From positions 168,166 through 232,165 of the forward strand of contig JBMNFQ010000001.1 in the NCBI GenBank assembly GCA_050949405.1: a stretch of 64,000 nt of DNA, given 5' to 3'. Both the position numbers and the translations under genes were made by a program. Below the pieces are notes generated by a model. That model saw nothing but the letters and a program-made list of their open reading frames with translations. It was not told the origin of the DNA and made no database searches. This stretch comes from Limisphaerales bacterium (GTDB lineage Bacteria; Verrucomicrobiota; Verrucomicrobiia; Limisphaerales; UBA1412). Below are positions 42,487 to 61,262 of the stretch, piece after piece (position 1 is the stretch's first letter; the number at the start of each line of letters is the position of its first letter).

Positions 42487-44526
42487 ATGGGTAAAATTGA
42501 TCATTCTACCGCCGGCGCTATCCATGCAGTCAAAAAATTGGATAAACGGGGACGCATTCTGGCTTATATCATCGCCGGCCACCATGCCGGACTTCCCGAT
42601 TGGTCTTACGATGATGCAAAAGGAGGCCCACTGCACGAACGGCTTGAGGATAAGAAAAGGAACCTTAATGCCGCCATGGATGGGGCTCCCCCTGAAAAGA
42701 TTCTGGCACCTCTGCTTTCCGGTTTGTCAACACCCTGTATTGCGGGTAAGGACTCTGTAGAGTTTATCCATTTATGGATAAGAATGCTCTTTTCCTGCCT
42801 TATAGATGCAGACCGCCTGGATACAGAAGCCTTCATGAGTCCTGAAAAATCAGAAGCACGGGGAGGCTACCCTGAAATCAGCGAGCTGGAAAAGCTCTAC
42901 GATGGCTACATGAAGAAAAAACAGGATGAAGCCCCAGGCAGCCCTGTAAACGAAAAGCGCAAAGAGATACTTGCTCAGTGCCTCGAAAAAGCTCAAGAAC
43001 CTCCAGGAATCTTTTCACTGACCGTCCCCACCGGCGGAGGAAAAACTCTGGCCTCAATGGGGTTTGCTCTAAAACATGCCATGAGATATGGCAAAAAACG
43101 GATCATTATTGTGATCCCCTATACCAGCATCATTGAGCAGACGGCTGAAGAGATGCGAAAGGTCTTTGGTGAAGAAACTGTACTGGAGCATCACAGCAAC
43201 TTGGACCCTGATAAGGAAACTACGACATCCAGTCTGGTCAGCGAAAACTGGGATGCTCCCATTATCGTCACAACCAATGTTCAATTCTTTGAATCCCTCT
43301 TCGCTTCAAGAGGCTCTGCCTGCCGTAAGATACACAACATCGTCAACTCCATTGTCATCCTTGATGAAGCCCAAACGTTGCCTACCGATTTTCTGCAACC
43401 CATCGTCTCCGTGATGAAGGGCCTTTGCAATCACTTCAAAACCACTTTTGTTCTCTGTACAGCAACGCAGCCTGTTCTAAATAAAAACATTAAATCCGGA
43501 ATGGCTATTCTCAACGGGTTTGAAAAAGTGACGGAAATCATGGAGGATCCAAAAGCTTTGTATCACAGCTTTCAGCGTGTGGAGGTTTCCCAACATCAAA
43601 AAAATATCGAGCAGGAATCCTCCCTGGAAGAGATTGCCGAAGAAATCGTGGAACATCAGCAAGTGCTTTGCATTGTTAGCACCCGAAAGCGTTGCCGGGA
43701 ATTGTTTGATCTGGTTCGGAACAGGTCAACCGACGCAGTGGAGGTGCTACACCTCTCAGCCCTGATGTGTCCCATGCACCGCAGCGACGTTATCGCACAA
43801 ATCAAAGAAAAACTCCTGCTGGGAGAGCCGATTCGCGTCATTAGCACTCAGGTAGTAGAAGCCGGTGTGGATATCGATTTCCCCGTCGTCTATCGTGAAT
43901 TGGCCGGTCTGGACTCCATCGCTCAGGCAGCCGGCAGATGCAACCGTGAAGGCAAACTAACCGAAGGGGGCAAAGTGGTTATTTTCAATGCCGGCAGTAC
44001 TTTACGAGGGCAGTTTGCCAAAGCAAGACAAGCCTGCGAAGAGACACTCCGGCATATCCAACCCGGAAAAGAACTCGCTCCCGAGAATTTTGAAAAATAT
44101 TTCACCCATTTTTTTCATAGACTCAATAGCTTTGACCAAAAGCAGATCATGACTTTGCTGACGAATGATGCCGCTGAGTGCAAAATTCAATTTCGTACAG
44201 CAGCGATGCGCTTTAAACTGATTGATGACAGCCACCAGCACGCCATCATCGTCCGATATAAAGGGAAACGCGGCAAACAGCTCGATAGCAATGAGCTTTT
44301 GAAAAAATTAAAAAATGAGGCTGATACGATGTGTAGTAAAGAAAAAAGAAAAACACTAAGAAGATTACAACGATTCTCAGTTACCCTCTATGACAAAGAA
44401 TTTGAGAACCTTAAAAACCAGGGAGCACTCGAAGAAGTATCCGGTATCTGGGCTCAGTTTAAAGAAGAAATTTATACTTCTGAGTGCGGGTTGGATGCCA
44501 AAATTTTTTTAGATCAGATTTACTGA
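42487..44526 (+). CDS. cas3: Cas3 remainder: C-terminal half of HD domain + SF2 helicase
   Basis: DHSTAGA, GHHAGL, LIDADRLDT, PTGGGKT, DEAQ, TAT, STQVVEAGVDIDF and QAAGRCNREG motifs. Confidence 0.92.
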   Translation: MGKIDHSTAGAIHAVKKLDKRGRILAYIIAGHHAGLPDWSYDDAKGGPLHERLEDKKRNLNAAMDGAPPEKILAPLLSGLSTPCIAGKDSVEFIHLWIRMLFSCLIDADRLDTEAFMSPEKSEARGGYPEISELEKLYDGYMKKKQDEAPGSPVNEKRKEILAQCLEKAQEPPGIFSLTVPTGGGKTLASMGFALKHAMRYGKKRIIIVIPYTSIIEQTAEEMRKVFGEETVLEHHSNLDPDKETTTSSLVSENWDAPIIVTTNVQFFESLFASRGSACRKIHNIVNSIVILDEAQTLPTDFLQPIVSVMKGLCNHFKTTFVLCTATQPVLNKNIKSGMAILNGFEKVTEIMEDPKALYHSFQRVEVSQHQKNIEQESSLEEIAEEIVEHQQVLCIVSTRKRCRELFDLVRNRSTDAVEVLHLSALMCPMHRSDVIAQIKEKLLLGEPIRVISTQVVEAGVDIDFPVVYRELAGLDSIAQAAGRCNREGKLTEGGKVVIFNAGSTLRGQFAKARQACEETLRHIQPGKELAPENFEKYFTHFFHRLNSFDQKQIMTLLTNDAAECKIQFRTAAMRFKLIDDSHQHAIIVRYKGKRGKQLDSNELLKKLKNEADTMCSKEKRKTLRRLQRFSVTLYDKEFENLKNQGALEEVSGIWAQFKEEIYTSECGLDAKIFLDQIY

Positions 44527-44539
44527 TGAAAGGATAGGA

Positions 44540-45265
44540 ATGGAAAACAACTATACAAACAAAGAATTCTGTCTGGAGGTCACGGGCGATTACGCCTGTT
44601 TCACCCGGCCGGAAATGAAGGTAGAGCGGGTCAGCTACGACGTAATCACGCCCTCAGCCCTCCGCTCCATCTTCGAAGCCATTCTTTGGAAACCGGCCAT
44701 CCGGTATATTCCAACGAAAATCGAAATTCTGAATCCCATTAAATGGGTTTCGGTGAGAAGAAACGAATTGTCCAGTATCGCCAGCACAAGAATCGGTTCA
44801 CGCGAAAAAGGTGTTTTTATTGAAGAGGATCGCCAGCAACGAGCCGGACTCTTTCTGAGAGATGTCGCCTACCGCCTCTATGCGGAGCTCGTGTTTATTC
44901 CTCCGGATAAACGCATGAAAGTGAAAAATCCCTTACCTGATTTCCTGGCGGATGAATTTGAAAAAAAGGAATTTTGGCCAAGGGATGAAAACCCGGGGAA
45001 ATACAATGCCATGTTTGAACGACGTGCCAGCAAGGGCCAATGCTTTAACCAGCCTTACTTGGGATGCCGCGAGTTCAGTTGCAGCTTCCGCTTCATTGAA
45101 GATCCGTCGAAAGAAACCAAAAAACCGATCAAGGAAACGAGAGACCTCAGCATTATGCTTTACGATAGGGATTACAACTCCAATAACCCGATGTTCTTCC
45201 GCGCCAAAATGGAAAGCGGTGTCATCACGATTCCGGAACCCGAAAGCGAGGAGGTTTTAAGATGA
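44540..45265 (+). CDS. cas5: Type I-C Cas5 (Cas5c/Cas5d)
   Basis: ACFTRPEMKVERVSYDVITPSA, WKP and QPYLGCREF motifs. Confidence 0.97.
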   Translation: MENNYTNKEFCLEVTGDYACFTRPEMKVERVSYDVITPSALRSIFEAILWKPAIRYIPTKIEILNPIKWVSVRRNELSSIASTRIGSREKGVFIEEDRQQRAGLFLRDVAYRLYAELVFIPPDKRMKVKNPLPDFLADEFEKKEFWPRDENPGKYNAMFERRASKGQCFNQPYLGCREFSCSFRFIEDPSKETKKPIKETRDLSIMLYDRDYNSNNPMFFRAKMESGVITIPEPESEEVLR

Positions 45266-47436
45266 TACTTCAGGAACTTTGTAAGTACTATGAACGGATT
45301 CCGAATGTGCCGCCTCCTGGTGCGACTTGGAGAAAGATACCATTTCTTGTTGTGATCAATAAAGAGGGTGAGTTTGTTGATATAGAAAGCACCTGGGACG
45401 ACAGTGGTAAAGCAAAAGATTTTTTAGTTCCCGTAGCTTCTTTACGAACAAGTGGAACAAAGCCTAATCTTCTCTGGGATAAACCGGATTATGTCTTTGG
45501 TGTCGGACCAAAAAATAAAGAAAAGAGAAATAAAGAAAGGAATGATTCTTTTATAAATCTTATCGAAATTTTTTTTAACGAAGAAGATGTAGCAGAAAAG
45601 GTTAAGCCTTTAATTAATTTTTTAAAAAATTCACCTACTGAAAAAATAGAAAAAAAGGCTTCAATCAATAAAGAGATTAAAAATAAATGGATTGAAATTA
45701 AAAATGGTTCTGAAATATGTTTTAGAATAATAGAATATTCAGATGATTTGTGTTCTGTTTTGAAAGTTTTTTGGCTAAAACATTGGTTAACATATTGGTT
45801 AGGTAATGAAACTACTTCCTCTTTAAAGGAAGCTGAGAAACAAATTTGCCTCATCACTGGAATTAAAAATAATATTGTAAGGATACATCCTGGAATTAAA
45901 GGCATAGGAGGTAATCAACCCAAAATAATTTCTTTTGATAAAAACACTCCCTCTTATAATTCTTATCAAAAAGAAGAGGGTAGCAATGCACCTGTTTCAG
46001 AAGAAGCTGTTTTCAAGTATGTGACTGCATTGAATACGTTGACAGAAGAAGGATCAATTAATACAACTCGACTCGAAGATACTAGGTTAGTGTTTTGGTC
46101 GGATGAAAAAACCGTTTTTGAAAGTAGTTTTTCTGCGTTGTTCGGCAACAATTCTACAGAAAAAGAAGATTTTTCAAAAATATTTAATTTTGAAACTAAG
46201 AACAATCCAAATAAAAACATAAGAGCGATAAAGAATCTTTATTCTAGCATTTACGCAGGAAGATTGTTGAAAGAAGAAACAAGTAATAATTTCTATATTT
46301 TAGGTCTTTCCGCTCCAACTAAAGGAAGAGCGTGTATAAGACTATGGAAAACAGGAAAAGTTTCAGAGTTTTCAAGACATATTAAACAATATTTTGATGA
46401 TATAAAAATTATTGGATATGAAAATATTAATGGTTATTTTCAGTTATATAAAATTTTAAATGAATTGTTTATAAAAACAGGAAATAAAGATAAAACATTA
46501 AAGGATAAAAAAGATAAGATACCTTCTAAAATTTCAAGAGATATTATTAATTCTTCTATTACTGAAGATATGTTTCCAATCGTTATGTTGCAAAGAGCAA
46601 TACAACGTATTCGAGCTGTCCAGGATGTCTCAGTAATTCGAGCAGGAGTTTTAAAAGCATATCTAAACAGATATGTAAGAATTCAGAAAAATCCTGAAAA
46701 ATTATTGAATATAGCATTAGATGAAGAAAATACAAATGCGGCCTATTGTTTTGGAAGGATTTTTGCAGTTTTGGGCAAGGTACAAGAATATATTAACCCT
46801 AAATTAGATGCTCCTATTCGAAACCGATTTTACGGAGGGGCCTCTATAACGCCCGTGAGAGTATTTCCTCACCTGATGAAACTGGCAACACATCATCTTT
46901 CGAAGCTTAGGAAAAAAAATCGAGGTTTGATGACTCTCAGAGAAAAACTATTGGATATTATTTTTCAAAAGTTTACTGCTTTAAATGAAAGGGCAAAACC
47001 ACTCACTTTGGATGATCAGGCACGCTTTGCTATTGGTTATTATCATCAGGTGCAGAGCTTTTATTATGATGATTATCTTGAAGAACAGGAGAAAAACATG
47101 GCACTAAATAAAGAAGAAAAAAATATTGGTTATCTTTTAGGACGTCTTTTTGGCATTCTCGAAGAAATACAGAAAGAGGCCAGTGGCGATCTCAATGCTA
47201 CAATTAAGGATCGCTTTTTTAGCGCAGCTATGGAAACACCAAAACGTATATTCCCAGAGCTGAGAAAACTATCTGAACACCATCTTAAAAAAATAAAAAC
47301 TTATAAAAAAGATGGTTTTAATAAAACGATAGATAATATTATTAATAATATTTCTATAGAAAATGTTCCTTCGACTCTATCTATTGAGGATCAATGGAAT
47401 TTCATCGTTGGTTATCATCACCAACGTAAAAACTAG
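45262..47436 (+). CDS. cas8c: Type I-C Cas8c (Csd1) with duplicated C-terminal Cas11-like domain
   Basis: MILQELCKYY, RTSG.KPNLLWD, CLITG, FYILGLSAP, and two copies of the Y..GR.F..L...Q...RF......P...FP.L.KL..HHL.K...Q..F..GY.HQ module. Confidence 0.92.
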   Translation: MILQELCKYYERIPNVPPPGATWRKIPFLVVINKEGEFVDIESTWDDSGKAKDFLVPVASLRTSGTKPNLLWDKPDYVFGVGPKNKEKRNKERNDSFINLIEIFFNEEDVAEKVKPLINFLKNSPTEKIEKKASINKEIKNKWIEIKNGSEICFRIIEYSDDLCSVLKVFWLKHWLTYWLGNETTSSLKEAEKQICLITGIKNNIVRIHPGIKGIGGNQPKIISFDKNTPSYNSYQKEEGSNAPVSEEAVFKYVTALNTLTEEGSINTTRLEDTRLVFWSDEKTVFESSFSALFGNNSTEKEDFSKIFNFETKNNPNKNIRAIKNLYSSIYAGRLLKEETSNNFYILGLSAPTKGRACIRLWKTGKVSEFSRHIKQYFDDIKIIGYENINGYFQLYKILNELFIKTGNKDKTLKDKKDKIPSKISRDIINSSITEDMFPIVMLQRAIQRIRAVQDVSVIRAGVLKAYLNRYVRIQKNPEKLLNIALDEENTNAAYCFGRIFAVLGKVQEYINPKLDAPIRNRFYGGASITPVRVFPHLMKLATHHLSKLRKKNRGLMTLREKLLDIIFQKFTALNERAKPLTLDDQARFAIGYYHQVQSFYYDDYLEEQEKNMALNKEEKNIGYLLGRLFGILEEIQKEASGDLNATIKDRFFSAAMETPKRIFPELRKLSEHHLKKIKTYKKDGFNKTIDNIINNISIENVPSTLSIEDQWNFIVGYHHQRKN
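47098..47436 (+). CDS. cas11: Internally translated Cas11c small subunit (112 aa)
   Basis: In-frame ATG (MALNKEE) preceded by AGGAG at 47087-47091. Internal Cas11 translation from cas8c is established for type I-C. Confidence 0.75.
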   Translation: MALNKEEKNIGYLLGRLFGILEEIQKEASGDLNATIKDRFFSAAMETPKRIFPELRKLSEHHLKKIKTYKKDGFNKTIDNIINNISIENVPSTLSIEDQWNFIVGYHHQRKN

Positions 47437-47475: not shown

Positions 47476-48513
47476 ATGAATGAAAATAATACAATAAAAA
47501 ACCGTTATGAATTTGTCCTTCTATTCGATGCGACAAATTGCAACCCCAATGGTGATCCGGATGCGGGCAATATGCCTCGTATTGATTCTGAAACACACCG
47601 TGGTCTAGTGACTGACGTCTGTATAAAACGAAAGATAAGAAATCGAATACAGATTCGAACTGTTAATAACAATGATTTAAATAAAAATAATTATGATATA
47701 TTTATAAAAGAAAAAGCCGTATTAAATAACTTAATCAAAGAAGCATATGACTCTCTTGAAACTAAATCTGAGAAAAAAATAGTGACACCATCTGATGCTC
47801 AAAAATTCATGTGCGAAAAGTACTATGATGTAAGAACATTTGGAGCTGTTATGAGTACTGGTGGGAAAGAAGATTCAAAAAACGATTCTGAATCTGAAAA
47901 TGATGAGATAAAAATTGATAATACTAAAAAGAAAGGCGAAAAAACTGATAAGAGTAAAAAATCAAAAAATGCCGGGCAGGTAAAAGGACCAATTCAATTA
48001 TCATTCGCTACCTCTATTAGCCCTATTTTCGAGCATCCACATTGCTTAACAAGGTGTGCTGTTACGAAAGAAGCTGATATTGATAAGGAACAAACCATGG
48101 GACGAAAATACACAATTCCTTATGGCCTCTACCGCGCGCATGGATATATTTCCGCTTTTCGGGCTCATAAGACCGGTTTTTCAAAAAAAGACCTGCAAAT
48201 ATTTTGGGAAGCTCTCCTTAACATGTTTGAAGAAGATCCCTCCTCTTCCCATTCCGGAATGACAGTCTGCGCCCTCTATGTGTTTAAACATTCCTCTCAA
48301 CTGGGAAATATGTATGCAGCTGATGTGTTCGATAGCGTAGAAATAACTGAAACTGAAAATAAACCTCCGCGTTCTTTTAGAGACTATAAGGTGACCCTAA
48401 AAACCGAGAAACTTGGAGATAAAGTCACTTTCCTTCGCTACCGTGATCGCTGGAATCCCGAGTTAGAAGATGGAGTTGAAGACCCGACGATAGCTGAAGA
48501 ATCGAAAGGCTAA
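47476..48513 (+). CDS. cas7: Type I-C Cas7 (Csd2)
   Basis: NRYEFV, NPNGDPDAGNMPRID, TDVCIKRKIR, DVRTFGAV, TMGRK and YGLY motifs. Confidence 0.97.
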   Translation: MNENNTIKNRYEFVLLFDATNCNPNGDPDAGNMPRIDSETHRGLVTDVCIKRKIRNRIQIRTVNNNDLNKNNYDIFIKEKAVLNNLIKEAYDSLETKSEKKIVTPSDAQKFMCEKYYDVRTFGAVMSTGGKEDSKNDSESENDEIKIDNTKKKGEKTDKSKKSKNAGQVKGPIQLSFATSISPIFEHPHCLTRCAVTKEADIDKEQTMGRKYTIPYGLYRAHGYISAFRAHKTGFSKKDLQIFWEALLNMFEEDPSSSHSGMTVCALYVFKHSSQLGNMYAADVFDSVEITETENKPPRSFRDYKVTLKTEKLGDKVTFLRYRDRWNPELEDGVEDPTIAEESKG

Positions 48514-48539: not shown

Positions 48540-49265
48540 GTGATCAACCCCAAATATGCGGAGTCGGACTATATCATGATCTCCGCTTTGCAGCACGTTG
48601 CTGTTTGTCCGAGGCAATGTGCGCTCATTCACAGCGAGCAACTCTGGGAAGATAACCGCTGGAGTGCCGAAGGCGAACTCCTCCACCAGCGCGTGGATAA
48701 AGGAGGAGAAGAAAAACGTGGCGAGCTCATCACCGCGCGCTCCGTCCGCCTAAGCCATCCCGAGCTGGGGATTACAGGAATCGCTGATATGGTGGAGTTC
48801 CGTAAATGGAACCCACAAAGCAAAGACTCCCCGCCACAGCAGGAGACTCTGCTAACCACAACCGAGCTCCCACACCGCCGGGGCCGCTGGATACCCTGCC
48901 CCGTCGAATACAAGCGGGGCAAAAGTAAACTCGAAGACTGGGACCGAGTACAACTTTGCGCTCAGACGCTCTGTCTGGAGTCAATGTACAAAATACGAAT
49001 TGACCGTGCAGCGCTTTGGTATGATTCAACCAAAAGCCGTGAATGGGTCACCCTTGATGAGTCCCTCAGAGAGAAGACGCTCTCCCTGATTGCCCAGGCC
49101 CACGAGCTGCTCCGCTCCGGCATAACCCCTCCACCGGTGTATGACCGGCGACGCTGCTCCGCCTGCTCCCTCTACGAAGTCTGCCGGCCGCGCGATTACA
49201 ACCCTCAGCGCCTGGAGCGCTACCATCAGAGCCTCTTCACTATCCAGGAACCCGAAGAGCCATAA
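48540..49265 (+). CDS. cas4: CRISPR-associated exonuclease Cas4
   Basis: ISALQH...CPRQ, GIADMVE, PVEYKRG, QLCAQ and C..CSL...C motifs. Confidence 0.95.
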   Translation: MINPKYAESDYIMISALQHVAVCPRQCALIHSEQLWEDNRWSAEGELLHQRVDKGGEEKRGELITARSVRLSHPELGITGIADMVEFRKWNPQSKDSPPQQETLLTTTELPHRRGRWIPCPVEYKRGKSKLEDWDRVQLCAQTLCLESMYKIRIDRAALWYDSTKSREWVTLDESLREKTLSLIAQAHELLRSGITPPPVYDRRRCSACSLYEVCRPRDYNPQRLERYHQSLFTIQEPEEP

Positions 49266-49280
49266 CAAAAACAGAACAAA

Positions 49281-50315
49281 ATGAAAAAACTTCTGAATAC
49301 TCTCTACATCACAAGCCCGGAAGCCTGGCTCCGCCGCGATGGCGAAACAGTAGAAATCCAGATACAGGGCAAAAAAGCAGGCAAACTCCCCGTTCACGGG
49401 TTGGAGAGCATTGTCTGCATGGGCTACAACGTCCTGATTACCCCCTCCCTGATGGAGCTCTGCGCCAGCCGCGGGGTCAGTATGGTTTATCTGAGCCAGA
49501 ACGGTCGCTTCCAGGCGCGCGTGGAGGGCCCGCTCAGCGGAAACGTGCTCCTGCGAAAAGAACAGTACCGTATCTCTGATGATGAACCCCGAGCGCTGCC
49601 GATCGCCAAAGCCTGCGTTGCTGCAAAAATACAGAATAGCCGCTCTAACCTGATGCGTCACTTGAGGAATCATCAGAATACTGACGGTAAAGAAAATATT
49701 GAGAAGGCGATAAACCGCCTGGCAATCCTCCTCAAAGAGGCTCAGGACAGTGCCACACTGGATGAGCTCAGAGGATACGAGGGTATCTGCGCAGATGAAT
49801 ATTTTTCGGTGTTCGACCACATGATAGTCGCACAGAAAAACGATTTCCGCTTTCTGAAGCGCTCACGCCGTCCGCCCCTGGACCGCGTCAATGCGCTCCT
49901 CTCATTCCTCTACGTTTTGCTGGCCCATGCCTGCCGCTCTGCCCTGGAATCTGTAGGTCTGGACCCTGCCGTCGGGTTCCTCCATAGAGACCGACCCGGC
50001 AGGCCCAGTCTTGCGCTGGATTTGCTGGAGGAATTCCGACATCCCATTGCAGACCGTCTGGTACTCTCATTGATTAACTTGCAAACAGTGCAGGCCAAAG
50101 ATTTCATTATCGGCCCCACCGGCGCCGTGGAAATGAGCGACGATACACGAAAGACGATCCTTCAGACCTGGCAGAAAAGAAAGCTCGACGAAGTCCAGCA
50201 TCCGTATCTGGAAGAGACGATCTCACTGGGGCTCTTCTTCCACGTGCAGGCGCAGCTCCTGGCCAGGACGATCCGGGGCGATATGAAATACTACCCCGCT
50301 TACATGAATCGATAA
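49281..50315 (+). CDS. cas1: Type I-C Cas1
   Basis: MKKLLNTLY, GNVLLR, LRGYEG, RRPPLD.VNALLSFLY, GFLH and LALDLLEEFR motifs. No RT domain. Confidence 0.97.
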   Translation: MKKLLNTLYITSPEAWLRRDGETVEIQIQGKKAGKLPVHGLESIVCMGYNVLITPSLMELCASRGVSMVYLSQNGRFQARVEGPLSGNVLLRKEQYRISDDEPRALPIAKACVAAKIQNSRSNLMRHLRNHQNTDGKENIEKAINRLAILLKEAQDSATLDELRGYEGICADEYFSVFDHMIVAQKNDFRFLKRSRRPPLDRVNALLSFLYVLLAHACRSALESVGLDPAVGFLHRDRPGRPSLALDLLEEFRHPIADRLVLSLINLQTVQAKDFIIGPTGAVEMSDDTRKTILQTWQKRKLDEVQHPYLEETISLGLFFHVQAQLLARTIRGDMKYYPAYMNR

Positions 50316-50316: not shown

Positions 50317-50610
50317 ATGCTTGTCCTGGTTACTTATGACGTGAACACGGCTTGCCCGGAAGGGCAAAGAAGGCTCCGACAAATCGCGAAAGTCTGCGAA
50401 AACAAAGGCCAGCGCGTTCAGTATTCCGTCTTTGAATGCGACCTTGAGCCAGCACAGTGGGTCAAAATGAAGGAAAAACTTCTAACACTTTTTGATCCGC
50501 AGAAGGATAGCTTGCGGTTCTACTTTCTGGGAAGTAATTGGGAACGCAAAATAGAGCACCATGGAGCCAAAGAATCTTATCACCCGACCCGGGATACCTT
50601 GATGTTTTGA
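50317..50610 (+). CDS. cas2: Cas2
   Basis: MLVLVTYDV, RVQYSVFEC and DSLRFY motifs. Confidence 0.97.
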   Translation: MLVLVTYDVNTACPEGQRRLRQIAKVCENKGQRVQYSVFECDLEPAQWVKMKEKLLTLFDPQKDSLRFYFLGSNWERKIEHHGAKESYHPTRDTLMF

Positions 50611-50783
50611 AGTTGCGCTAAGCGGACGTTCTCATGAAAACCCCCTCAGTTTAGCAGTCACTCTCTTTGAAGACGTTAATGTATATCTCCAGCCTTGAAA
50701 TAAGGTGGATTTTGAAAATTCTAACGAGCTCAGCGGAAATGCCTTTAAATTTTACTGCAAATCAATTACTTTCAGCGCATAGA
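50611..50783 (+). promoter_or_regulatory. CRISPR leader
   Basis: AT-rich non-coding 173 bp between cas2 and the first repeat. A degenerate repeat at the far end of the array supports this orientation. Confidence 0.8.
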
Positions 50784-53700
50784 GTCGCACCCTTCACGGG
50801 TGCGTGGATTGAAACCCAATGCAGTATATCTTTCAACACTATCTAACAAGTCGCACCCTTCACGGGTGCGTGGATTGAAACACCGTCATACCCGTATCCG
50901 CGATAAAGTCGCACCCTTCACGGGTGCGTGGATTGAAACATTTGTTCCTGAAAAGTACCCCGTTTGTCGCACCCTTCACGGGTGCGTGGATTGAAACAAG
51001 CTATCGGGCTGACCACCTTTCGTGGTCCGATGAACGGGTCGCACCCTTCACGGGTGCGTGGATTGAAACACGGTAGATAATTTCGTCATTCTCCACCGGT
51101 CGCACCCTTCACGGGTGCGTGGATTGAAACATCTAATCACGTTAGTGAGCTTTAAGTTGTCGCACCCTTCACGGGTGCGTGGATTGAAACAGAGGATACT
51201 ACCAAGCGATGCTTTAAAGTGGTATATCGTCGCACCCTTCACGGGTGCGTGGATTGAAACAGGGTTCAGGCTGGCTTCAGGCATACATCAGCAGATCACT
51301 GAAGTCGCACCCTTCACGGGTGCGTGGATTGAAACATCACTCTTCGATGCGACCACTGCTTCAATGCGGTTTCCATGGTCGCACCCTTCACGGGTGCGTG
51401 GATTGAAACAACCGTAACTCGTACGCGTATACCAGCCAATCACGTCGCACCCTTCACGGGTGCGTGGATTGAAACACATCTCGCGAGCTCAACGTCGAAA
51501 TCGGTCGCACCCTTCACGGGTGCGTGGATTGAAACATGCCAGTTCGTTGCAGTGACTTCGTGCTGTTGACTCGCGGCGTCGACAGTCGCACCCTTCACGG
51601 GTGCGTGGATTGAAACAACCGTAACCGATTGTACTTAGGCGCGTGGGCGTAACGATTCACGTCGCACCCTTCACGGGTGCGTGGATTGAAACACAGTTAA
51701 CCTAAGGTTAATCAGTTGGTCGCACCCTTCACGGGTGCGTGGATTGAAACCCGTAATCGTACATGCATCGTCCCGCAGTCGCACCCTTCACGGGTGCGTG
51801 GATTGAAACATTGGACAGTTGGTTCTGCTTGAAACTAGCTGTCGCACCCTTCACGGGTGCGTGGATTGAAACATGTTCTGAGTTAGATGACCGGCTATGG
51901 TCGCACCCTTCACGGGTGCGTGGATTGAAACAACATCAATTATATCGCCTGAACCACCGCCTATAGGTCGCACCCTTCACGGGTGCGTGGATTGAAACAC
52001 CACCTTCGATACCTTTGGCATCTTTAATCGTATGTCGCACCCTTCACGGGTGCGTGGATTGAAACACCAGTATAATTCGTGCTTACACACCTAACCCTAA
52101 GTCGCACCCTTCACGGGTGCGTGGATTGAAACATTGCTGGACGCTATCATCGCCGGTGTTTCAAAGTCGCACCCTTCACGGGTGCGTGGATTGAAACAAA
52201 CATCGTTTTACTTGGCATCTTCTAATTCCTCTGTCGCACCCTTCACGGGTGCGTGGATTGAAACTTTACTTCTCCAAACGAATACGGGCGATATTTAAGT
52301 CGCACCCTTCACGGGTGCGTGGATTGAAACATAGCATTTGACCTTGGAGTCCGCCTTGATGGTCGTCGCACCCTTCACGGGTGCGTGGATTGAAACATTG
52401 TATATCCTTATTTTATTTGTTTTCCAGCTCAGTCGCACCCTTCACGGGTGCGTGGATTGAAACACCAGTATAATTCGTGCTTAACACACCTAACCCTAAG
52501 TCGCACCCTTCACGGGTGCGTGGATTGAAACATCTAACCCGTTTAATATCTTGTTTAACTTGTCCAGTCGCACCCTTCACGGGTGCGTGGATTGAAACAT
52601 TTGGCTTTACAAACTGATAGTCCAGCGGAAAACGTCGCACCCTTCACGGGTGCGTGGATTGAAACATGCAACTGAATATGCACTTGCAAGATGGCTAAAG
52701 GTCGCACCCTTCACGGGTGCGTGGATTGAAACGACTGCAAACAATTTTAGCGGGCTATCCCTGTTAGTCGCACCCTTCACGGGTGCGTGGATTGAAACAA
52801 CCTGTTCAATATCTTCATACTCTTCCATAGTAAGTCGCACCCTTCACGGGTGCGTGGATTGAAACATCAAATCCTATATACTCATTATACGCCAGTTCGT
52901 CGCACCCTTCACGGGTGCGTGGATTGAAACGTGATTGGGACGTTATCATATCAAACGAAGATGTGTCGCACCCTTCACGGGTGCGTGGATTGAAACTTAA
53001 GATTGCCTGCAAGCAGGACTGGCAGGATGGTGTCGCACCCTTCACGGGTGCGTGGATTGAAACATATTCAGTCGAGTTACCTTTATCCCTTGCCGCTGCG
53101 TCGCACCCTTCACGGGTGCGTGGATTGAAACACCGGATGACATTGATAACTATCGGTTAAACGTTGTCGCACCCTTCACGGGTGCGTGGATTGAAACACT
53201 GGTTTCAGCAACGCACCTGTTCCAACCGAAAAGTCGCACCCTTCACGGGTGCGTGGATTGAAACAGACTGTAAAACGGCGGTCAGATGCGTCAGCGGCGT
53301 CGCACCCTTCACGGGTGCGTGGATTGAAACTGGCTTTAAAAGACCTTTGATAATATCAAACTCGGTCGCACCCTTCACGGGTGCGTGGATTGAAACAAAG
53401 AAGTTTTTCTGTTTCGTCAGTCTGTTGCGATGTCGCACCCTTCACGGGTGCGTGGATTGAAACTTTTGTTGGCGTCTCGTCAAAGAGGTGCCCTCTCGGT
53501 CGCACCCTTCACGGGTGCGTGGATTGAAACGTTTTATTATCTCAAAGCCAAAGTCTTGCCCGCCGTCGCACCCTTCACGGGTGCGTGGATTGAAACTGCG
53601 CTGGCATTCCTGCAAAAATCGGATAAGCTTTGTCGCACCCTTCACGGGTGCGTGGATTGAAACATCAAATCCTATATACTCATTATACGCCAGTTCTCGT

Positions 53701-56700
53701 CGCACCCTTCACGGGTGCGTGGATTGAAACAAGCAGGTCTTCTCTCTTTATATAGATTCTTTTTGTCGCACCCTTCACGGGTGCGTGGATTGAAACTGGG
53801 GAGGTAGTTAAAAATGCTGAAACATTCGAGACGTCGCACCCTTCACGGGTGCGTGGATTGAAACTCAAACAAAGCGTACACGGCTGCCATACCCAGCCGG
53901 GTCGCACCCTTCACGGGTGCGTGGATTGAAACACGGGGATGACACGCCTAGTGCCCGTATCTTTGATGGTCGCACCCTTCACGGGTGCGTGGATTGAAAC
54001 GATTTTAGCGTAGATTTTTTTAAAGTCCTTTCGGACGTCGCACCCTTCACGGGTGCGTGGATTGAAACGCGGGAATCGCTTGAAAGGATACTTTGCTTTT
54101 CAGGTCGCACCCTTCACGGGTGCGTGGATTGAAACAATCACGAACTCCTGCCGTTGCCAGCTACCTAAAGTCGCACCCTTCACGGGTGCGTGGATTGAAA
54201 CAATAACAGGCCAGTCTCCTTCAGGGTTATACTCCAGTCGCACCCTTCACGGGTGCGTGGATTGAAACAGTATAAGCGGCTGGAGAAAGATGTAGATATT
54301 TCAGTCGCACCCTTCACGGGTGCGTGGATTGAAACATCAAACGTACAGCCTATCTTATACCCAGTAAATAAGTCGCACCCTTCACGGGTGCGTGGATTGA
54401 AACTCTGGGTAATAATACGTACTAATAACTGCTCGTAGTGTCGCACCCTTCACGGGTGCGTGGATTGAAACAGCATTATCTAGGCAGGAACCCGCCTACC
54501 TTTGAAGTCGCACCCTTCACGGGTGCGTGGATTGAAACTTATGCCTTCACCACATTGCAGCAGTCGGATGACGTCGCACCCTTCACGGGTGCGTGGATTG
54601 AAACTTGCGGGTTATCTTCTCTACATAGCTTCTAAGGTTGTCGCACCCTTCACGGGTGCGTGGATTGAAACTTTAAACAGCAAGTATGCCGAGAAACACG
54701 GGTATGGTCGCACCCTTCACGGGTGCGTGGATTGAAACATGCCCTATATTGGAAGAGTGCATACCAGAAAGGCGTCGCACCCTTCACGGGTGCGTGGATT
54801 GAAACCGGCCTACCCGAACATACTCAGGTACCATCCTGGGGGTCGCACCCTTCACGGGTGCGTGGATTGAAACATTTACTTCGTTAAAAGAAGTAGTTTT
54901 ACCAAAAGGTCGCACCCTTCACGGGTGCGTGGATTGAAACGTTGGAGAATCCTCTCGGGTAAGCGTCCGGTGCCCGGTCGCACCCTTCACGGGTGCGTGG
55001 ATTGAAACTTGTGGCAGCGCATGTTTGGCGCACAGCCCCGAGTCGCACCCTTCACGGGTGCGTGGATTGAAACATATAATCATTCCTACAGGTTATTTCT
55101 ACCTATCCGTCGCACCCTTCACGGGTGCGTGGATTGAAACCCTTTGCCAGTATAACCGGGTCTTTGGTCTCTGAGTCGCACCCTTCACGGGTGCGTGGAT
55201 TGAAACTGCTGACGGTCTGATACCTTCGCCAATCAATAACGGTCGCACCCTTCACGGGTGCGTGGATTGAAACTCATGCCCTTGGTGCGATACGCCGAAT
55301 TCAAAAAGTCGCACCCTTCACGGGTGCGTGGATTGAAACTTCCAAACAACGCTTGTACCTTGGCCTATCCTTCAGGTCGCACCCTTCACGGGTGCGTGGA
55401 TTGAAACATGGTATGTTTATTCTTTAACCATCATCCCAGCCAGTCGCACCCTTCACGGGTGCGTGGATTGAAACTGGAGATGGCGCGCGGCCAGAACGAG
55501 GTCAATATGTCGCACCCTTCACGGGTGCGTGGATTGAAACGATAAATAATACTTAAGCCGCCTTGGACGCCCGTACGTCGCACCCTTCACGGGTGCGTGG
55601 ATTGAAACGGAAGGAGATAGTTATTTTGATTTAGTGGATGAGTCGCACCCTTCACGGGTGCGTGGATTGAAACAACCATACGAAGTATACTCACCACCTT
55701 GCTTTGAGGTCGCACCCTTCACGGGTGCGTGGATTGAAACACGGGCACTTCCTGCACTTGCTTCAATGATATCCTGTCGCACCCTTCACGGGTGCGTGGA
55801 TTGAAACGGCCAGATAATCACGGAGGCGTCTAAAGTCAACCGTCGCACCCTTCACGGGTGCGTGGATTGAAACAGCGAGCCTGACCTCTGGAAAAAGTAA
55901 TCTGTACTGTCGCACCCTTCACGGGTGCGTGGATTGAAACCTTGATAAAAGTAAGTAAAAACTATGCCTATGATTGGTCGCACCCTTCACGGGTGCGTGG
56001 ATTGAAACAAGACGCAGAAAAGCACAAGGAAAACCTGATCAGTCGCACCCTTCACGGGTGCGTGGATTGAAACCTGTTGGCGACGGGGTGGTGGTGACTA
56101 AAGTTGACGTCGCACCCTTCACGGGTGCGTGGATTGAAACAAAGATCAAAAAATTACTGGAGTGCAGTTTTAGGGTCGCACCCTTCACGGGTGCGTGGAT
56201 TGAAACGTAAAAACGAATAATGTTGCTAACGGCAGCGTGGTCGCACCCTTCACGGGTGCGTGGATTGAAACATCTCAGCGATTTTGGTAGGCTCGGAGCC
56301 GGTATGGTCGCACCCTTCACGGGTGCGTGGATTGAAACTGCGTATCAGGAGGCTATCACGATGTGGCACCTATAGTCGCACCCTTCACGGGTGCGTGGAT
56401 TGAAACAGACTGGGCCCGTTGTAATAATTCCTTATTCCTAGGTCGCACCCTTCACGGGTGCGTGGATTGAAACATAATTGGTGATAAAATAATAAGATTA
56501 GGGTGTGAAGTCGCACCCTTCACGGGTGCGTGGATTGAAACTTTTTTGGTACTGCTTCCATCCGCGGGGCCGTGAGGTCGCACCCTTCACGGGTGCGTGG
56601 ATTGAAACAAGACGGCAAGGTGCTGATGCATTGCTTTGCCGGGTCGCACCCTTCACGGGTGCGTGGATTGAAACTCCAATCCTTATTGGTAAAATAGGAA

Positions 56701-59700
56701 GGACAGTCGTCGCACCCTTCACGGGTGCGTGGATTGAAACTTTATGATGCAGAGGGCAGGATGAAATCCTTAGCGGTCGCACCCTTCACGGGTGCGTGGA
56801 TTGAAACATCCAAATCTCGACATCTCGTATCGTGCCCAGCAGTCGCACCCTTCACGGGTGCGTGGATTGAAACGCGTCTCAGGTTGTGGATCGCAAAAAG
56901 GCATACTTGTCGCACCCTTCACGGGTGCGTGGATTGAAACGTTTATTGTATCCCGACGGGCAATAACCCGACTTAAGTCGCACCCTTCACGGGTGCGTGG
57001 ATTGAAACCTTTTGGGCTCTGATGCAGTCAGGTCTGTAATAGGGTCGCACCCTTCACGGGTGCGTGGATTGAAACGCCGTAGCTGTACCCGAACGATGCT
57101 GATACCTTTGGTCGCACCCTTCACGGGTGCGTGGATTGAAACGCCTAACTCCTGCCCGCATATATCACACCTATTCAGTCGCACCCTTCACGGGTGCGTG
57201 GATTGAAACGTTGCTGCTTAGATTGGACCCCAAAAAAGATAGGTCGCACCCTTCACGGGTGCGTGGATTGAAACAAAATTAAGCTTCTGATAATCGGTAT
57301 CCGTGCAGGTCGCACCCTTCACGGGTGCGTGGATTGAAACACGCTGTAACCGTTTTGATTTAGCCCGCCAACTGGTCGCACCCTTCACGGGTGCGTGGAT
57401 TGAAACATCAATTATGTTTTCATCTATAACTGTACCTTGGATGTCGCACCCTTCACGGGTGCGTGGATTGAAACAAATTGGACCCAAAAAAAGATAAGGC
57501 GATAGCTCGGTCGCACCCTTCACGGGTGCGTGGATTGAAACATCAAGACCAGCAGCACCAACGCGAGTTGTAGAAGTCGCACCCTTCACGGGTGCGTGGA
57601 TTGAAACTTCTGACTTCATTAAGGAGTTTCTCGGCAACGCTAGTCGCACCCTTCACGGGTGCGTGGATTGAAACGTCCAGATTGCGTATAATAAGAGAGG
57701 CAGGACGTGTCGCACCCTTCACGGGTGCGTGGATTGAAACAAAATCATTGTCTATCCGGCCAATTAACCGATGCGTCGCACCCTTCACGGGTGCGTGGAT
57801 TGAAACAGGTGTTTGGTCGGGTAGTCCGGGAATACTCAGAGTCGCACCCTTCACGGGTGCGTGGATTGAAACATGAGATACTGGAGACGTTATGTTTGGA
57901 CCGTAGGTCGCACCCTTCACGGGTGCGTGGATTGAAACATATTCCCTGATTTTGCCAGACATGCCCAGCAGAGTCGCACCCTTCACGGGTGCGTGGATTG
58001 AAACAACTTGGCTGTTCGGGAAGCTTACAGGTTGGCTCGGTCGCACCCTTCACGGGTGCGTGGATTGAAACCACAGTCCACATCAGATAAAGCAAATATA
58101 TCAAAGTCGCACCCTTCACGGGTGCGTGGATTGAAACAATCAAAAGATGGAGGGCGATGAAGTAAAAAACGGTCGCACCCTTCACGGGTGCGTGGATTGA
58201 AACCCATCTAAAGACACCTTTGCAGGAAGTAATGGAGGTCGCACCCTTCACGGGTGCGTGGATTGAAACTTTGGATGTCGTTAATAATTTCGCAATTGCA
58301 GGAAGTCGCACCCTTCACGGGTGCGTGGATTGAAACTTAATAAGGATGTAGAAGAGGGTGCTGCAGTCTTAGTCGCACCCTTCACGGGTGCGTGGATTGA
58401 AACCCATACCTGCCTAAACGCAAGCAGCAACCAAAGTCGCACCCTTCACGGGTGCGTGGATTGAAACAATCATATCTATCCCAGCCAGATATGCCGATAA
58501 CGTCGCACCCTTCACGGGTGCGTGGATTGAAACATCATCCGTCAGATTTTAGCTAATGTTGCACTCTGTCGCACCCTTCACGGGTGCGTGGATTGAAACC
58601 GATGATTTTGAAAGTCAACCACATGATTCGAGAAGTCGCACCCTTCACGGGTGCGTGGATTGAAACCTCTGTTTTTTAATCAGGTAAAAGGGTTGAAAGG
58701 TCGCACCCTTCACGGGTGCGTGGATTGAAACAGAAGATATTGTGGATAGCCCTGAAGAGACAGAAGGTCGCACCCTTCACGGGTGCGTGGATTGAAACAT
58801 TGTATACATAAACAAGCATTCTCTATTCATACCAGTCGCACCCTTCACGGGTGCGTGGATTGAAACTGGATAATATAAGGGTACTGTGTAACTTTTTAAA
58901 CAGTCGCACCCTTCACGGGTGCGTGGATTGAAACAAGCGACCGGTCAATGACAGCATCGTGGAAGGTAGTCGCACCCTTCACGGGTGCGTGGATTGAAAC
59001 CATCGTATAGCCCTGTAGAAGAAACGGTCTGGGGGTCGCACCCTTCACGGGTGCGTGGATTGAAACAGGCAGGTAATCATGCAGCTTACGTCGGCCAGCC
59101 GTCGCACCCTTCACGGGTGCGTGGATTGAAACACCTAATATACCACCTAAACTCATTAAAAACAAGGTCGCACCCTTCACGGGTGCGTGGATTGAAACCG
59201 GTTAAAGAATAAATGCCCTTGTTTAACCCCGCAGTCGCACCCTTCACGGGTGCGTGGATTGAAACAGTCCAGCCGGGTTTAGAAGAAAGTTTTTGTATGG
59301 TCGCACCCTTCACGGGTGCGTGGATTGAAACAAGCATGATGGCGAGGCTTGCAGGGCCAAGGAACGTCGCACCCTTCACGGGTGCGTGGATTGAAACGAT
59401 AAATGGCAACTTTATTTCTTTGAGATGGTGGGTCGCACCCTTCACGGGTGCGTGGATTGAAACTAATAATCGATTTGGTTATTCCGTTCTCGGTAACGTC
59501 GCACCCTTCACGGGTGCGTGGATTGAAACGCCAGCTCAGCCGACGCCACCCAGCAGACGGCAAGTCGCACCCTTCACGGGTGCGTGGATTGAAACAGGGA
59601 TGTAAAGAATTTCGCCAATCGGGACCTTGGGGTCGCACCCTTCACGGGTGCGTGGATTGAAACTTATGTAACCTAACATTTTCTTTACCGCCTATGGCGT

Positions 59701-61262
59701 CGCACCCTTCACGGGTGCGTGGATTGAAACCAACAGGCTGGCACATTCCCGCAGGCTGTCACCTTCGTCGCACCCTTCACGGGTGCGTGGATTGAAACAA
59801 AGATTGGCGCAGTTATTTGATTGCTCATCATCGTCGCACCCTTCACGGGTGCGTGGATTGAAACCCAGCTCAGCCGACGCCACCCAGCAGACGGCAGTAG
59901 TCGCACCCTTCACGGGTGCGTGGATTGAAACAGACCTCCTCCGTAATCTGGCTCTCCTCCGTAATTGTCGCACCCTTCACGGGTGCGTGGATTGAAACTC
60001 GGCCAGAACCACCAACCCGAGTTGCAGAATCAGTCGCACCCTTCACGGGTGCGTGGATTGAAACATTTTATATGGCCATTTGGGGCTTTGGAATGGGAGT
60101 CGCACCCTTCACGGGTGCGTGGATTGAAACACAGATCATGTAATCTTTCAACCCTTTAACCGCATGTCGCACCCTTCACGGGTGCGTGGATTGAAACCCA
60201 AAAGACAGCGTTTGAACTTGCCTGGGATGAGGTCGCACCCTTCACGGGTGCGTGGATTGAAACTGAAAAGTGAATTCTCCATTTTCATATTTTGAAAGTC
60301 GCACCCTTCACGGGTGCGTGGATTGAAACTTGCAAGATAAGCTTCTTAAAAATTATATCGAAGTCGCACCCTTCACGGGTGCGTGGATTGAAGCCGGAAG
60401 GGTTCAAAGTTTCGGATGACGACGGCGAGTCGCACCCTTCACGGGTGCGTGGATTGAAACATTAAAAGCTGCGCCTGTACATCCCAACGACGGAAGTCGC
60501 ACCCTTCACGGGTGCGTGGATTGAAACATTAAAAGCTGCGCCTGTACATCCCAACGACGGAAGTCGCACCCTTCACGGGTGCGTGGATTGAAACTTGAAA
60601 TTTCCAGTGGCGCGGAAAGGTGGACGTTGTCGCACCCTTCACGGGTGCGTGGATTGAAACAGTTGGAAAAGATGATGGTACTCCCATCACGGTTGTCGCA
60701 CCCTTCACGGGTGCGTGGATTGAAACACTCCACCGTTTGGCAAGCGGCTTTCGATCAAAGGTCGCACCCTTCACGGGTGCGTGGATTGAAACAGAGAGCT
60801 TTTGAGTGATACGACCTTGAGAATAAGTCGCACCCTTCACGGGTGCGTGGATTGAAACGCCTTCGCTGTTCTTGACTGTGTAAACCAGAGTAGTCGCACC
60901 CTTCACGGGTGCGTGGATTGAAACGGTGAAGTTGCGTAAAATGTTGATTATGAAGGACTGTCGCACCCTTCACGGGTGCGTGGATTGAAACGATACTTAC
61001 AACTTTAAACGTAAATCGTAAATATTTGGTCGCACCCTTCACGGGTGCGTGGATTGAAACCGAAGAAATTCATAATAACGCAAAATTGGCCCATTGTCGC
61101 ACCCTTCACGGGTGCGTGGATTGAAACTCGGAGCTGAATCGGAGACCGAATCGGAGACCGAGTCGCACCCTTCACGGGTGCGTGGATTGAAACCGCCTCG
61201 AGCTGGTCGGGGGTCTCTTCGTATTCAAAAGTCGCACCCTTCACGGGTGCGTGGATTGAAAC
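50784..61262 (+). CRISPR. Type I-C CRISPR array, about 158 repeats of GTCGCACCCTTCACGGGTGCGTGGATTGAAAC
   Basis: 32-bp repeat with a CGCACCC/GGGTGCG hairpin; about 158 copies by manual count. One variant ends GAAGC at 60363. Degenerate terminal repeat GCCGCGTCCTTATGG at 61299. Confidence 0.99.

What the first reader, a model, noticed from the sequence alone, without database searches (positions are those of the whole stretch)
50882..51899. Discrete block of 16 recent spacers with aberrant lengths (26-49 nt) in a type I-C array
Seen: spacers 2-17 measure 26, 26, 40, 29, 28, 38, 43, 42, 34, 28, 49, 44, 26, 27, 31 and 27 nt. Spacer 1 (34 nt) and the roughly 140 older spacers fall in about 32-37 nt. 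The flanking repeats are perfect and the block has sharp edges. Established: Cas4-Cas1-Cas2 of type I-C gives a narrow length distribution, whereas RT-Cas1/type III adaptation or loss of Cas4 trimming broadens it. The local cas4, cas1 and cas2 look intact and carry no RT. Inference: for one episode this array was written by a different mechanism or from a different substrate. Candidates are a trans-acting RT/RT-Cas1 capturing RNA, ssDNA/cDNA prespacers, or phage inhibition of Cas4 trimming.
Basis: partly seen in the sequence, partly recalled or inferred. Interest (0 to 1): 0.9.

Follow-up and report, generated by a model that had tools for sequence, protein, structure and literature searches.

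The report
Odd-length spacer block, origin unresolved
Sixteen consecutive spacers in an otherwise regular type I-C CRISPR array have abnormal lengths and random-looking sequence; this is slightly more likely an assembly error in a mixed population than a new way of writing CRISPR memory, and only the raw reads can decide.

Summary
Spacers 2-17 (50882-51899) are 26-49 nt; 15 of 16 fall outside the 32-37 nt range that holds all 141 other spacers, and all flanking repeats are perfect. Four related arrays (about 149 spacers) and about 1,450 spacers in other I-C arrays show nothing similar.

The genome has one cas1, no RT-Cas1, and only group II intron RTs. Published Cas4 knockouts shift spacer length by 0-1 nt.

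The block also differs in content. Twenty-six of the 141 normal spacers hit one phage (PAM TTC/CTC); none of the 16 does. The block's base, dinucleotide and k-mer statistics match shuffled sequence. Three of its six long spacers carry imperfect, indel-bearing internal duplications. No block spacer was found in any collection searched, nor in four bioreactor runs that hold this organism's leader.

The genome is an unrotated circular metagenome contig from a population whose leader-proximal spacers vary. My best reading (about 0.5) is a consensus artefact. Against it: spacer 1 is normal, the block's GC and CpG are higher than mixing would give, and simple simulations do not reproduce the lengths. 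A real ruler-free acquisition episode remains at about 0.3. Reads spanning the leader to spacer 18 would settle it.

The parts
42238..42483 (+). N-terminal piece of the cas3 HD domain. It ends at an in-frame TAG (42481-42483).
   Evidence: Translation and DNA. The same split is present in L103 and L104.
42487..44526 (+). cas3: the rest of the HD domain plus the helicase
   Evidence: TIGR01587 150.9 bits (cut-off 102) and TIGR01596 44.8 bits (cut-off 43.45)
44540..45265 (+). cas5c
   Evidence: TIGR01876 228.9 bits (cut-off 85)
45262..47436 (+). cas8c
   Evidence: TIGR01863 514 bits (cut-off 218.65)
47476..48513 (+). cas7c
   Evidence: TIGR02589 307.5 bits (cut-off 182.25)
48540..49265 (+). cas4, a full-length open frame
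   Evidence: TIGR00372 116.3 bits (cut-off 65), matched 13-217 against profile positions 2-180 of 180. Translation.
49281..50315 (+). cas1c, the only cas1 in the genome
   Evidence: TIGR03640 485 bits (cut-off 385). One PF01867 match in the whole genome.
50317..50610 (+). cas2
   Evidence: TIGR01573 66.8 bits (cut-off 24.5)
50611..50783 (+). Leader
   Evidence: Lies between cas2 and the first repeat. Positions 50620 to about 50810 are present without a difference in contigs of 4 public runs.
50784..61262 (+). Type I-C CRISPR array: 158 repeats, 157 spacers
50816..50849 (+). Spacer 1, the newest: 34 nt, normal length, AT-rich
   Evidence: No exact match in IMG/VR.
50882..51899 (+). Block of spacers 2-17 with aberrant lengths (26-49 nt) and their perfect repeats
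51932..52100 (+). Spacers 18-20, the first normal older spacers. Their protospacers sit next to a TTC PAM.
   Evidence: contigs of runs X3, X9 and X11; IMG/VR contigs

Best explanation
The block is most likely not a faithful copy of any one cell's array. I read it as a consensus artefact of a long-read metagenome assembly across a strain-variable stretch near the leader.

In this reading the repeats are shared by every read, so they were called perfectly. The spacer positions were called from reads of different array variants, possibly with different numbers of units. That would give sequences that match nothing, look random, carry stutter-like imperfect duplications, and have arbitrary lengths. 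One concrete version: the dominant strain reads leader-spacer 1-spacer 18, and the draft path ran through a poorly supported variant carrying extra units between them.

Shown: the genome is an unrotated metagenome-type contig; the population is heterogeneous near the leader in another sample; the block's sequence is random-like. Inferred: the artefact mechanism itself. I could not see the reads or learn which assembler was used.
For: 1. The single 2.74 Mb contig begins and ends inside a hemN-like gene. It is therefore an unrotated circular contig of the kind metagenome assemblers produce.
2. Run X1 holds this array lineage: its loose ends equal window spacers 45, 51, 59, 60 and 98. The leader contig there has depth 75, but the contig carrying spacer 20 has depth 16.5. 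Leader-proximal spacers are therefore polymorphic in such populations.
3. The block is statistically like shuffled sequence. Its k-mer score against its own shuffles gives z of -0.35 to 1.09 in 5 Markov models. Sets of normal spacers, phage fragments and host fragments average 1.5-5.3. Only 2 of 49 sets from unrelated natural loci fall below 0.7, while the block scores 0.11.
4. Base composition is 25/25/23/27% and run lengths are at the uniform-random expectation. Six-base palindromes are at the random level, 9 of 458, against 43 of 4151 in normal spacers.
5. Three of the six long spacers (8, 9 and 13) carry imperfect internal direct repeats: p = 0.013, 0.003 and 0.010. Fisher's combined p over the six is 0.001, a grouping chosen after seeing the data. 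Only 1 of 30 normal spacers reaches p < 0.05. Across the four best repeat alignments shown (spacers 8, 9, 12 and 13), 4 of the 7 differences between copies are indels.
6. Spacers 2, 13 and 15 look like indel-ridden relatives of spacer 10, the only normal-length member.
7. No block spacer was found anywhere. None of 24 listed runs holds half of the words, and the best share is 0.17. No displayed piece in 4 runs covers a block spacer. Six of six block spacers scanned gave no exact IMG/VR match. Phage and plasmid collections gave only repeat-driven or chance hits.
8. Cas1-Cas2 acts as a ruler. About 1,450 surveyed spacers and about 149 spacers of relatives keep to it.
9. Long-read MAG arrays can be damaged: L057 is an example.
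Against: 1. Spacer 1 is normal in length and composition, so the block is internal. Simple heterogeneity at the leader end should hit the newest spacer hardest. The artefact needs the more specific dominant-strain scenario.
2. My toy plurality consensus of 3-8 mixed spacers in register gave 32-37 nt, GC 38-43% and CpG 0.033-0.052. It did not give 26-49 nt, GC 48% and CpG 0.082.
3. Per-base noise of 45-60% was needed to bring the k-mer score down to the block's level. Even then it gave a length sd of only 2.9-3.7, against 7.8 observed.
4. The block shares no fragments with 250 known spacers of this lineage, with the phage, or with the host.
5. Elsewhere the assembly is exact: there are no differences from an independent contig (L103) over the locus outside two recombination patches. 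Those strain-variable patches encode intact genes, so they were not garbled.
6. The one damaged array I found (L057) also has broken repeats. Here all the repeats are perfect.
7. I found no paper describing this kind of artefact. One six-term full-text search listed 9 of 10 papers, and I read passages of two of them.
Confidence: 0.5

Rival explanations
1. The episode is real. The cognate Cas4-Cas1-Cas2 integrated 16 off-size prespacers from a compositionally unusual source other than the usual phage. Repeat duplication stayed exact, but the ruler on the PAM-distal side failed. Normal acquisition then resumed with spacer 1.
For: All repeats are exactly 32 nt and the block's edges are sharp, with normal spacers on both sides. 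Fifteen of 16 block spacers start with A, continuing the trend of 16 of 20 in spacers 18-37. That fits an intact PAM-side end. The higher GC and CpG, and no hit among 16 against a phage fragment that 10 of the 30 most recent normal spacers hit, fit a different invader. In vitro, type I-C Cas4 cuts at the PAM wherever it lies, not by a ruler, and Cas1-Cas2 integrates some unprocessed substrate (passages in PMC6519985). The rest of the assembly is exact.
Against: No known Cas1-Cas2 system gives 26-49 nt. Cas4 loss gives a shift of 0-1 nt. Natural DNA rarely looks this random (2 of 49 control sets). No protospacer was found and no PAM could be checked. cas4, cas1 and cas2 are intact today, so the cause would have to be transient and is unidentified.
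Confidence: 0.27
2. The block was imported by recombination through the identical repeats from another array. The donor could be carried on a mobile element or be a decoy array, with filler spacers that are not ruler-made and drift neutrally.
For: The block is internal with sharp edges at repeats. Neutral filler could explain the random-like sequence, the variable lengths and the internal duplications. The locus is visibly recombinogenic: two imported patches differ from the otherwise identical contig L103.
Against: No donor array with this repeat and odd spacers was seen. That covers 4 related arrays, the rows shown for 401 genomes of the phylum, the rows shown for the plasmid and phage collections, and all 12 array unitigs displayed from 4 runs, which imply 33-36 nt. 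Seventeen perfectly conserved repeats beside freely drifting spacers would need an explanation.
Confidence: 0.08
3. One reading: RNA or cDNA capture through a trans-acting RT or RT-Cas1, or a phage inhibitor of Cas4 trimming.
For: Seven active-looking group II intron RT copies exist in the genome. The block's source is not the usual DNA phage.
Against: There is one cas1, no RT fused to or next to it, and no second adaptation module. Group II intron RTs are not known to feed Cas1-Cas2 (recalled). Cas4 inactivation does not broaden spacer length. RT-Cas1 arrays also keep a narrow length range (recalled, not checked here).
Confidence: 0.05
4. Normal 34-36 nt spacers were changed after integration by deletions and duplications.
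For: Removing one copy of the internal repeat brings spacer 12 to 35 nt (49 minus 14) and spacer 8 to 32 nt (43 minus 11). The block's mean length, 33.6 nt, is close to normal.
Against: Fifteen of 16 adjacent spacers are affected, yet none of the 17 repeats and none of the 141 other spacers is. Spacers 9 and 13 do not return to a normal length. The random-like composition is left unexplained.
Confidence: 0.04

Closest known systems
Canonical type I-C adaptation by Cas4-Cas1-Cas2 (Bacillus halodurans system; PMC6519985, passages read)
   Same: Same gene set and order. The 32-nt repeat ends in ATTGAAAC. A TTC PAM is confirmed for spacers 18-47. The 141 normal spacers are 32-37 nt.
   Different: The 16 block spacers are 26-49 nt, and no protospacer or PAM was found for them.
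Adaptation without Cas4 activity (type I-D in E. coli, PMC5896167; Cas4-Cas1 fusion system, PMC6547450; passages read)
   Different: The published effect is loss of PAM selection plus a shift of 0-1 nt in modal length. The spread in length is unchanged. Here the sd rises from 0.9 to 7.8, and cas4 is intact.
RT-Cas1 spacer capture from RNA in type III systems (recalled from Silas et al. 2016; not read here)
   Same: It is a different substrate class, written into an ordinary-looking array.
   Different: This genome has no RT-Cas1 and no second cas1. Its RTs are group II intron maturases.
Damaged CRISPR array in a long-read MAG (locus L057)
   Same: A metagenome-assembled array with irregular unit lengths, flanked by regular units.
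   Different: In L057 the repeats are truncated too. Here all the repeats are perfect and only the spacers are abnormal.
Spacer-size heterogeneity in type I-B Haloarcula hispanica (PMC5416893; title and start of abstract seen only)
   Same: It is a documented case where spacer size is not fixed by the ruler alone.
   Different: From the abstract, the heterogeneity is tied to protospacer terminal sequence. It does not describe a discrete block spanning 23 nt inside a regular array.

Membership tests
Type I-C CRISPR-Cas locus | Cas5c, Cas8c and Cas7c effector genes plus Cas3 | tested here: met
   All are above the NCBIfam cut-offs. cas3 is split by a conserved in-frame TAG.
Type I-C CRISPR-Cas locus | Cas4, Cas1c and Cas2 adaptation genes next to the array | tested here: met
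   TIGR00372 116 bits, TIGR03640 485 bits and TIGR01573 67 bits, all full length
Type I-C CRISPR-Cas locus | 5'-TTC PAM next to protospacers | tested here: met
   Ten TTC and 10 CTC among 25 protospacers on phage contig G041. TTC also appears in run contigs for spacers 19 and 20. This applies to normal spacers only.
Canonical type I-C spacers (applied to the block) | Length set by the Cas1-Cas2 ruler, 32-37 nt in this lineage | tested here: not met
   Fifteen of 16 lie outside 32-37 nt.
Canonical type I-C spacers (applied to the block) | Copied from an invader next to a TTC PAM | tested here: inconclusive
   No protospacer was found. Six of the 16 block spacers were scanned for exact matches in IMG/VR. 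All 16 were compared with three phage contigs, the plasmid and phage collections, 401 plus 5 genomes, and the own genome.
RT-Cas1 or type III adaptation in trans | A reverse transcriptase fused to or beside a cas1, or a second cas1-cas2 | tested here: not met
   One PF01867 match in the genome. Seven PF00078 matches, all the same group II intron RT (TIGR04416 416 bits, cut-off 300) with intron RNA domains.
Cas4-deficient adaptation | Cas4 absent or inactive | tested here: not met
   cas4 is an intact 241-aa frame above the family cut-off. Its catalytic and Fe-S residues were judged by eye against recalled motifs only. A past transient inhibition cannot be tested.
Cas4-deficient adaptation | Phenotype: PAM selection lost and modal length shifted by about 1 nt | tested here: not met
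   The observed range is 26-49 nt. The published effect is a shift of 0-1 nt.
Assembly or consensus artefact | The sequence is not supported by individual reads of the source sample | not testable with these tools
   No indexed run holds the block (best share 0.17). The source reads were not available.
Assembly or consensus artefact | Assembly from a mixed population with variation at this place | tested here: met
   The contig is an unrotated circle. In run X1 the leader has depth 75 and the spacer-20 contig depth 16.5. This is another sample, not necessarily the source.

The most novel reading that the evidence does not exclude
The 16 spacers are genuine. For one episode the cognate type I-C integrase wrote substrates that its Cas1-Cas2 ruler did not measure. 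Repeat duplication and the PAM-side first base were kept. The sequence it wrote has the statistics of random DNA, with slippage-like internal duplications. That would mean DNA not copied from an ordinary genome, for example untemplated or slippage-synthesised filler, or a very unusual element, so the array grew without storing usable memory.
Probability: 0.3. Interest if true: 0.85.

Novelty: not a real feature. Interest (0 to 1): 0.4.

Why it matters
If the block is real, it would be the first natural record of a Cas1-Cas2 integrase abandoning its length ruler for a defined period while still duplicating repeats exactly. That bears on how prespacer length is enforced in vivo and on whether invaders can corrupt CRISPR memory.

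If it is an artefact, it is a useful warning. Long-read metagenome assemblies may produce arrays with perfect repeats and invented spacers. Such spacers would contaminate spacer databases and host-virus links, and repeat-based quality checks would not catch them. Either way the test is cheap: reads or an amplicon from the leader to spacer 18.

Tried and rejected
Searches for targets
- Self-targeting. No block spacer matches its own genome. The longest exact matches are 11-14 nt, as for shuffled sequence.
- Phage and plasmid collections with the whole block. Only repeat-driven hits appeared among the rows shown; 26 plasmid records were not listed.
- Spacers 10, 12 and 13 queried singly against plasmids. 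This gave no match or chance hits at E >= 3.
- Exact IMG/VR scans of spacers 1, 2, 8, 10, 12, 13 and 14. All gave no hit. The control, spacer 19, gave 3 contigs. All 8 scans are now used. Ten of the 16 block spacers were never scanned singly, and exact matching misses near matches.
- 401 genomes of the phylum and 5 genomes of the genus. Only repeat-driven hits appeared in the rows shown; 278 matches were not listed.
- Sequencing runs. No run holds the block. The four runs I laid are contigs, which show presence and not absence, and 634 pieces were not shown. I treat this only as 'not seen'.

Ideas about the block's nature
- Noisy copies of spacers against the known phage: rejected for error rates up to about 15%.
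- Chimeras of known spacers: no shared fragments.
- General excess of pairwise similarity within the block: not above controls, with 2 of 120 pairs at z > 3 in both the block and the control set. Only the cluster around spacer 10 stands out, and that is a post hoc observation.
- Excess of hairpins: not significant.
- Lengths fitting steps of 6 nt from the normal length: 5 of 16 fit, as chance would give (my own count).
- Sequence copied from the repeat or leader: 7-mer matches are at chance level.
- Cas4 or Cas1 change as the cause. The window differs from contig L103 only in two recombination patches, one of them covering the 3' end of cas4 and the 5' end of cas1. L103 looks like the recombinant for the cas4 part, and no link to spacer length can be drawn.
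- A genome-wide scan for other random-like stretches was uninformative, because it mainly finds AT-rich islands.

Limits
- Paper supplements were closed and were not consulted.
- The look-up of encoding contigs was described as closed, and I did not call it.
Full report
**What is in the sequence**

The window carries a complete type I-C locus:
- cas3, at 42238-44526. It is split by an in-frame TAG.
- cas5c, cas8c and cas7c.
- cas4 (48540-49265), cas1 (49281-50315) and cas2 (50317-50610).

A 173-nt leader follows, then an array of 158 repeats and 157 spacers at 50784-61262. The repeat ends in ATTGAAAC and lies on the same strand as the cas genes, so spacer 1 is the newest.

Their mean is 33.6 nt and their sd 7.8. 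The other 141 spacers span 32-37 nt with sd 0.89. Fifteen of the 16 fall outside that range. Every repeat around them is perfect.

**Is it unusual?**

Yes. Arrays of relatives with the same or a nearly identical repeat are regular:
- G005: 92 spacers of 33-36 nt.
- G004: 12 spacers of 33-37 nt.
- Metagenome contig L105: six leader-proximal spacers of 34-35 nt.
- G003: 39 intervals implying 33-37 nt.

I also ran a crude survey of 45 arrays next to Cas1c relatives, about 1,500 intervals. It gave one true outlier of 41 nt. One array, L057, was visibly damaged, with truncated repeats as well. Two arrays had a repeat that my script cut short, and two values were glitches.

In four bioreactor and wastewater runs, all 12 displayed array unitigs with this repeat imply spacers of 33-36 nt. 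That figure is my own arithmetic.

The whole genome (2.74 Mb, one contig) has one Cas1 match, the local gene. It has seven RVT_1 matches. All are the same group II intron RT/maturase with intron RNA domains.

A second array of 20 repeats, with every spacer the same length, belongs to a lone 1130-aa Cas9 without cas1 or cas2. No RT-Cas1 exists.

I read passages of three papers:
- Kieper et al. [quoted passage not shown]
- Almendros et al. (PMC6547450): no length change with Cas4-domain mutants.
- Lee et al. (PMC6519985): Cas4 cuts at the PAM rather than by a ruler, and it blocks premature integration of unprocessed prespacers.

Cas4 inhibition therefore does not predict 26-49 nt.

**What the normal spacers do**

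Spacer 19 has exact matches in three IMG/VR contigs. Twenty-six of the 141 normal spacers match these contigs with at most 3 mismatches. The longest contig, G041, is 48 kb and rated 28% complete.

PAM use on G041 is TTC 10 times, CTC 10 times, and other triplets 5 times. There are 18 hits on one strand and 7 on the other. Run contigs show the same TTC context for spacers 19 and 20. The system is an ordinary, heavily used anti-phage type I-C array.

**What the block does**

None of the 16 block spacers, nor spacer 1, matches these phage contigs. That holds with up to 20% substitutions and in gapped alignment against shuffled controls, where 15% error would still have been detected. Ten of the 30 most recent normal spacers hit the same fragment, so 0 of 16 is unlikely for the same source.

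The block's GC is 48% and its CpG observed/expected ratio is 1.44. The normal spacers have 40-46% GC and a ratio of 0.8-1.3.

More strikingly, the block behaves like shuffled sequence:
- Its k-mer score against its own shuffles gives z of -0.35 to 1.09 in five Markov models. Natural sets average 1.5-5.3.
- Only 2 of 49 sets from unrelated loci fall below 0.7, while the block scores 0.11.
- Base composition is 25/25/23/27% and run lengths are at the uniform-random expectation.
- Six-base palindromes are at the random level, whereas normal spacers avoid them.

The block is still not pure noise:
- Three of the six long spacers contain imperfect internal direct repeats whose copies differ largely by indels. 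The combined p over the six is 0.001, and I chose that grouping post hoc. Only 1 of 30 normal spacers reaches p < 0.05.
- Spacers 2, 13 and 15 resemble spacer 10, the only 34-nt member, at their 5' ends.
- Fifteen of the 16 begin with A, against 70 of 141 elsewhere and 16 of 20 in spacers 18-37.

**Independent data**

No indexed run holds the block; the best word share is 0.17. All four runs I laid carry the leader without a difference, at depth 27-85.

Run X1 also carries older spacers of this array (45, 51, 59, 60, 98), and it carries spacer 20 at depth 16.5 against 75 for the leader. So the same lineage exists elsewhere and is polymorphic near the leader. No displayed piece covers a block spacer or spacer 1, but the listing is cut, and contigs cannot prove absence.

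**Weighing the readings**

The genome is an unrotated circular contig that starts inside a gene. It is therefore a metagenome assembly of a population.

A consensus built over array variants would keep the shared repeats perfect and could invent spacer sequence. This explains several things at once:
- the random statistics;
- the indel-rich stutters;
- the absence of any match;
- the conflict with the Cas1-Cas2 ruler.

Base rates also favour it. One of 45 surveyed arrays was visibly damaged, while I know of no natural array written without the ruler.

The artefact reading has real problems, however:
- Spacer 1 is normal, so the block is internal.
- Mixing ordinary spacers should lower GC and CpG, not raise them, and my in-register consensus simulation kept lengths at 32-37 nt.
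- Per-base noise cannot give an sd of 7.8.
- No fragment of any known spacer is present in the block.
- The assembly is otherwise exact against an independent contig, including in strain-variable patches.

I therefore put the artefact at about 0.5. A genuine ruler-free episode from an odd source gets about 0.27.

**Verdict**

The finding cannot be called biology until reads from the leader to spacer 18 are examined. I score interest at 0.4. It would rise to about 0.85 if single reads confirm the block.

Noticed in passing
window 42238-44526: cas3 is split inside its HD domain by an in-frame TAG at 42481-42483, followed one codon later by an ATG. The same arrangement is kept in a 98%-identical metagenome contig (L103) and in a different species (L104), where the two parts are 86% and 73% identical at the protein level. 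This looks like a conserved split or a read-through rather than a fresh pseudogene.
   Followed up: partly
window 51932-59500 (spacers 18-131), against phage contig G041: PAM use changes along the array. Protospacers of spacers 60-105 carry CTC (10 on G041). Those of spacers 18-47 and of spacer 125 carry TTC (10). This could reflect a change in Cas4 or Cas8c specificity over time, or an array that is a recombinant of two histories.
   Followed up: no
window 44640-45240 and 49040-49640: Compared with metagenome contig L103, the locus is identical over about 8.5 kb except for two patches of about 10% divergence. One lies in cas5c and has in-frame 15- and 12-nt indels. The other spans the 3' end of cas4 and the 5' end of cas1. 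These look like recombination tracts. In the cas4 part, L103 resembles species L104.
   Followed up: partly
window 61194-61230 (spacer 157) and genome position 694755-694790: The oldest spacer matches the organism's own chromosome over 36 of 36 nt. It is either a self-targeting spacer or a spacer against an integrated element.
   Followed up: no
genome 314186-315513 and 316193-319585 (outside the window; L192:794-4186): A second CRISPR array has 20 repeats of 36 nt, with all 19 spacers the same length. It sits beside a lone 1130-aa Cas9 with no cas1, cas2 or csn2. It is a type II system that depends on another adaptation module or is frozen.
   Followed up: partly
genome, seven places (L001-L007): Seven copies of one group II intron share the same RT score. 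The RT/maturase scores 416 bits against TIGR04416, and intron domains D1-D4 were found by Rfam.
   Followed up: partly
IMG/VR contigs G041-G043 (L183-L190): A large phage is hit by 26 spacers of this array, with a strand bias of 18 to 7. The 48-kb fragment is rated 28% complete, which implies a genome of about 170 kb. The same phage is abundant in three of the four runs laid, at depths up to 735.
   Followed up: partly
window 52066-52100 / 52464-52499; 52866-52898 / 53664-53698; 60461-60562: There are repeated acquisitions of the same site. Spacers 20 and 26 differ by one A, and both versions exist in public runs. Spacers 32 and 44 share a start but end 2 nt apart. Spacers 146 and 147 are identical.
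   Followed up: no
whole array, first base of each spacer: A is the first base in 70 of the 141 normal spacers, in 16 of 20 for spacers 18-37, and in 15 of 16 in the block. In phage matches the A is present in the phage right after the PAM, so this is a real preference for PAM+1 = A.
   Followed up: partly
locus L057:11500-13400: The array of an unrelated long-read MAG has a central stretch where both repeats and spacers are truncated. It is an example of assembly damage in CRISPR arrays.
   Followed up: no
genome about 2,000,500-2,002,200; also about 260,000, 563,000 and 1,776,000 (outside the window): Several islands have very low GC (15-25%) in a genome of 51% GC.
   Followed up: no
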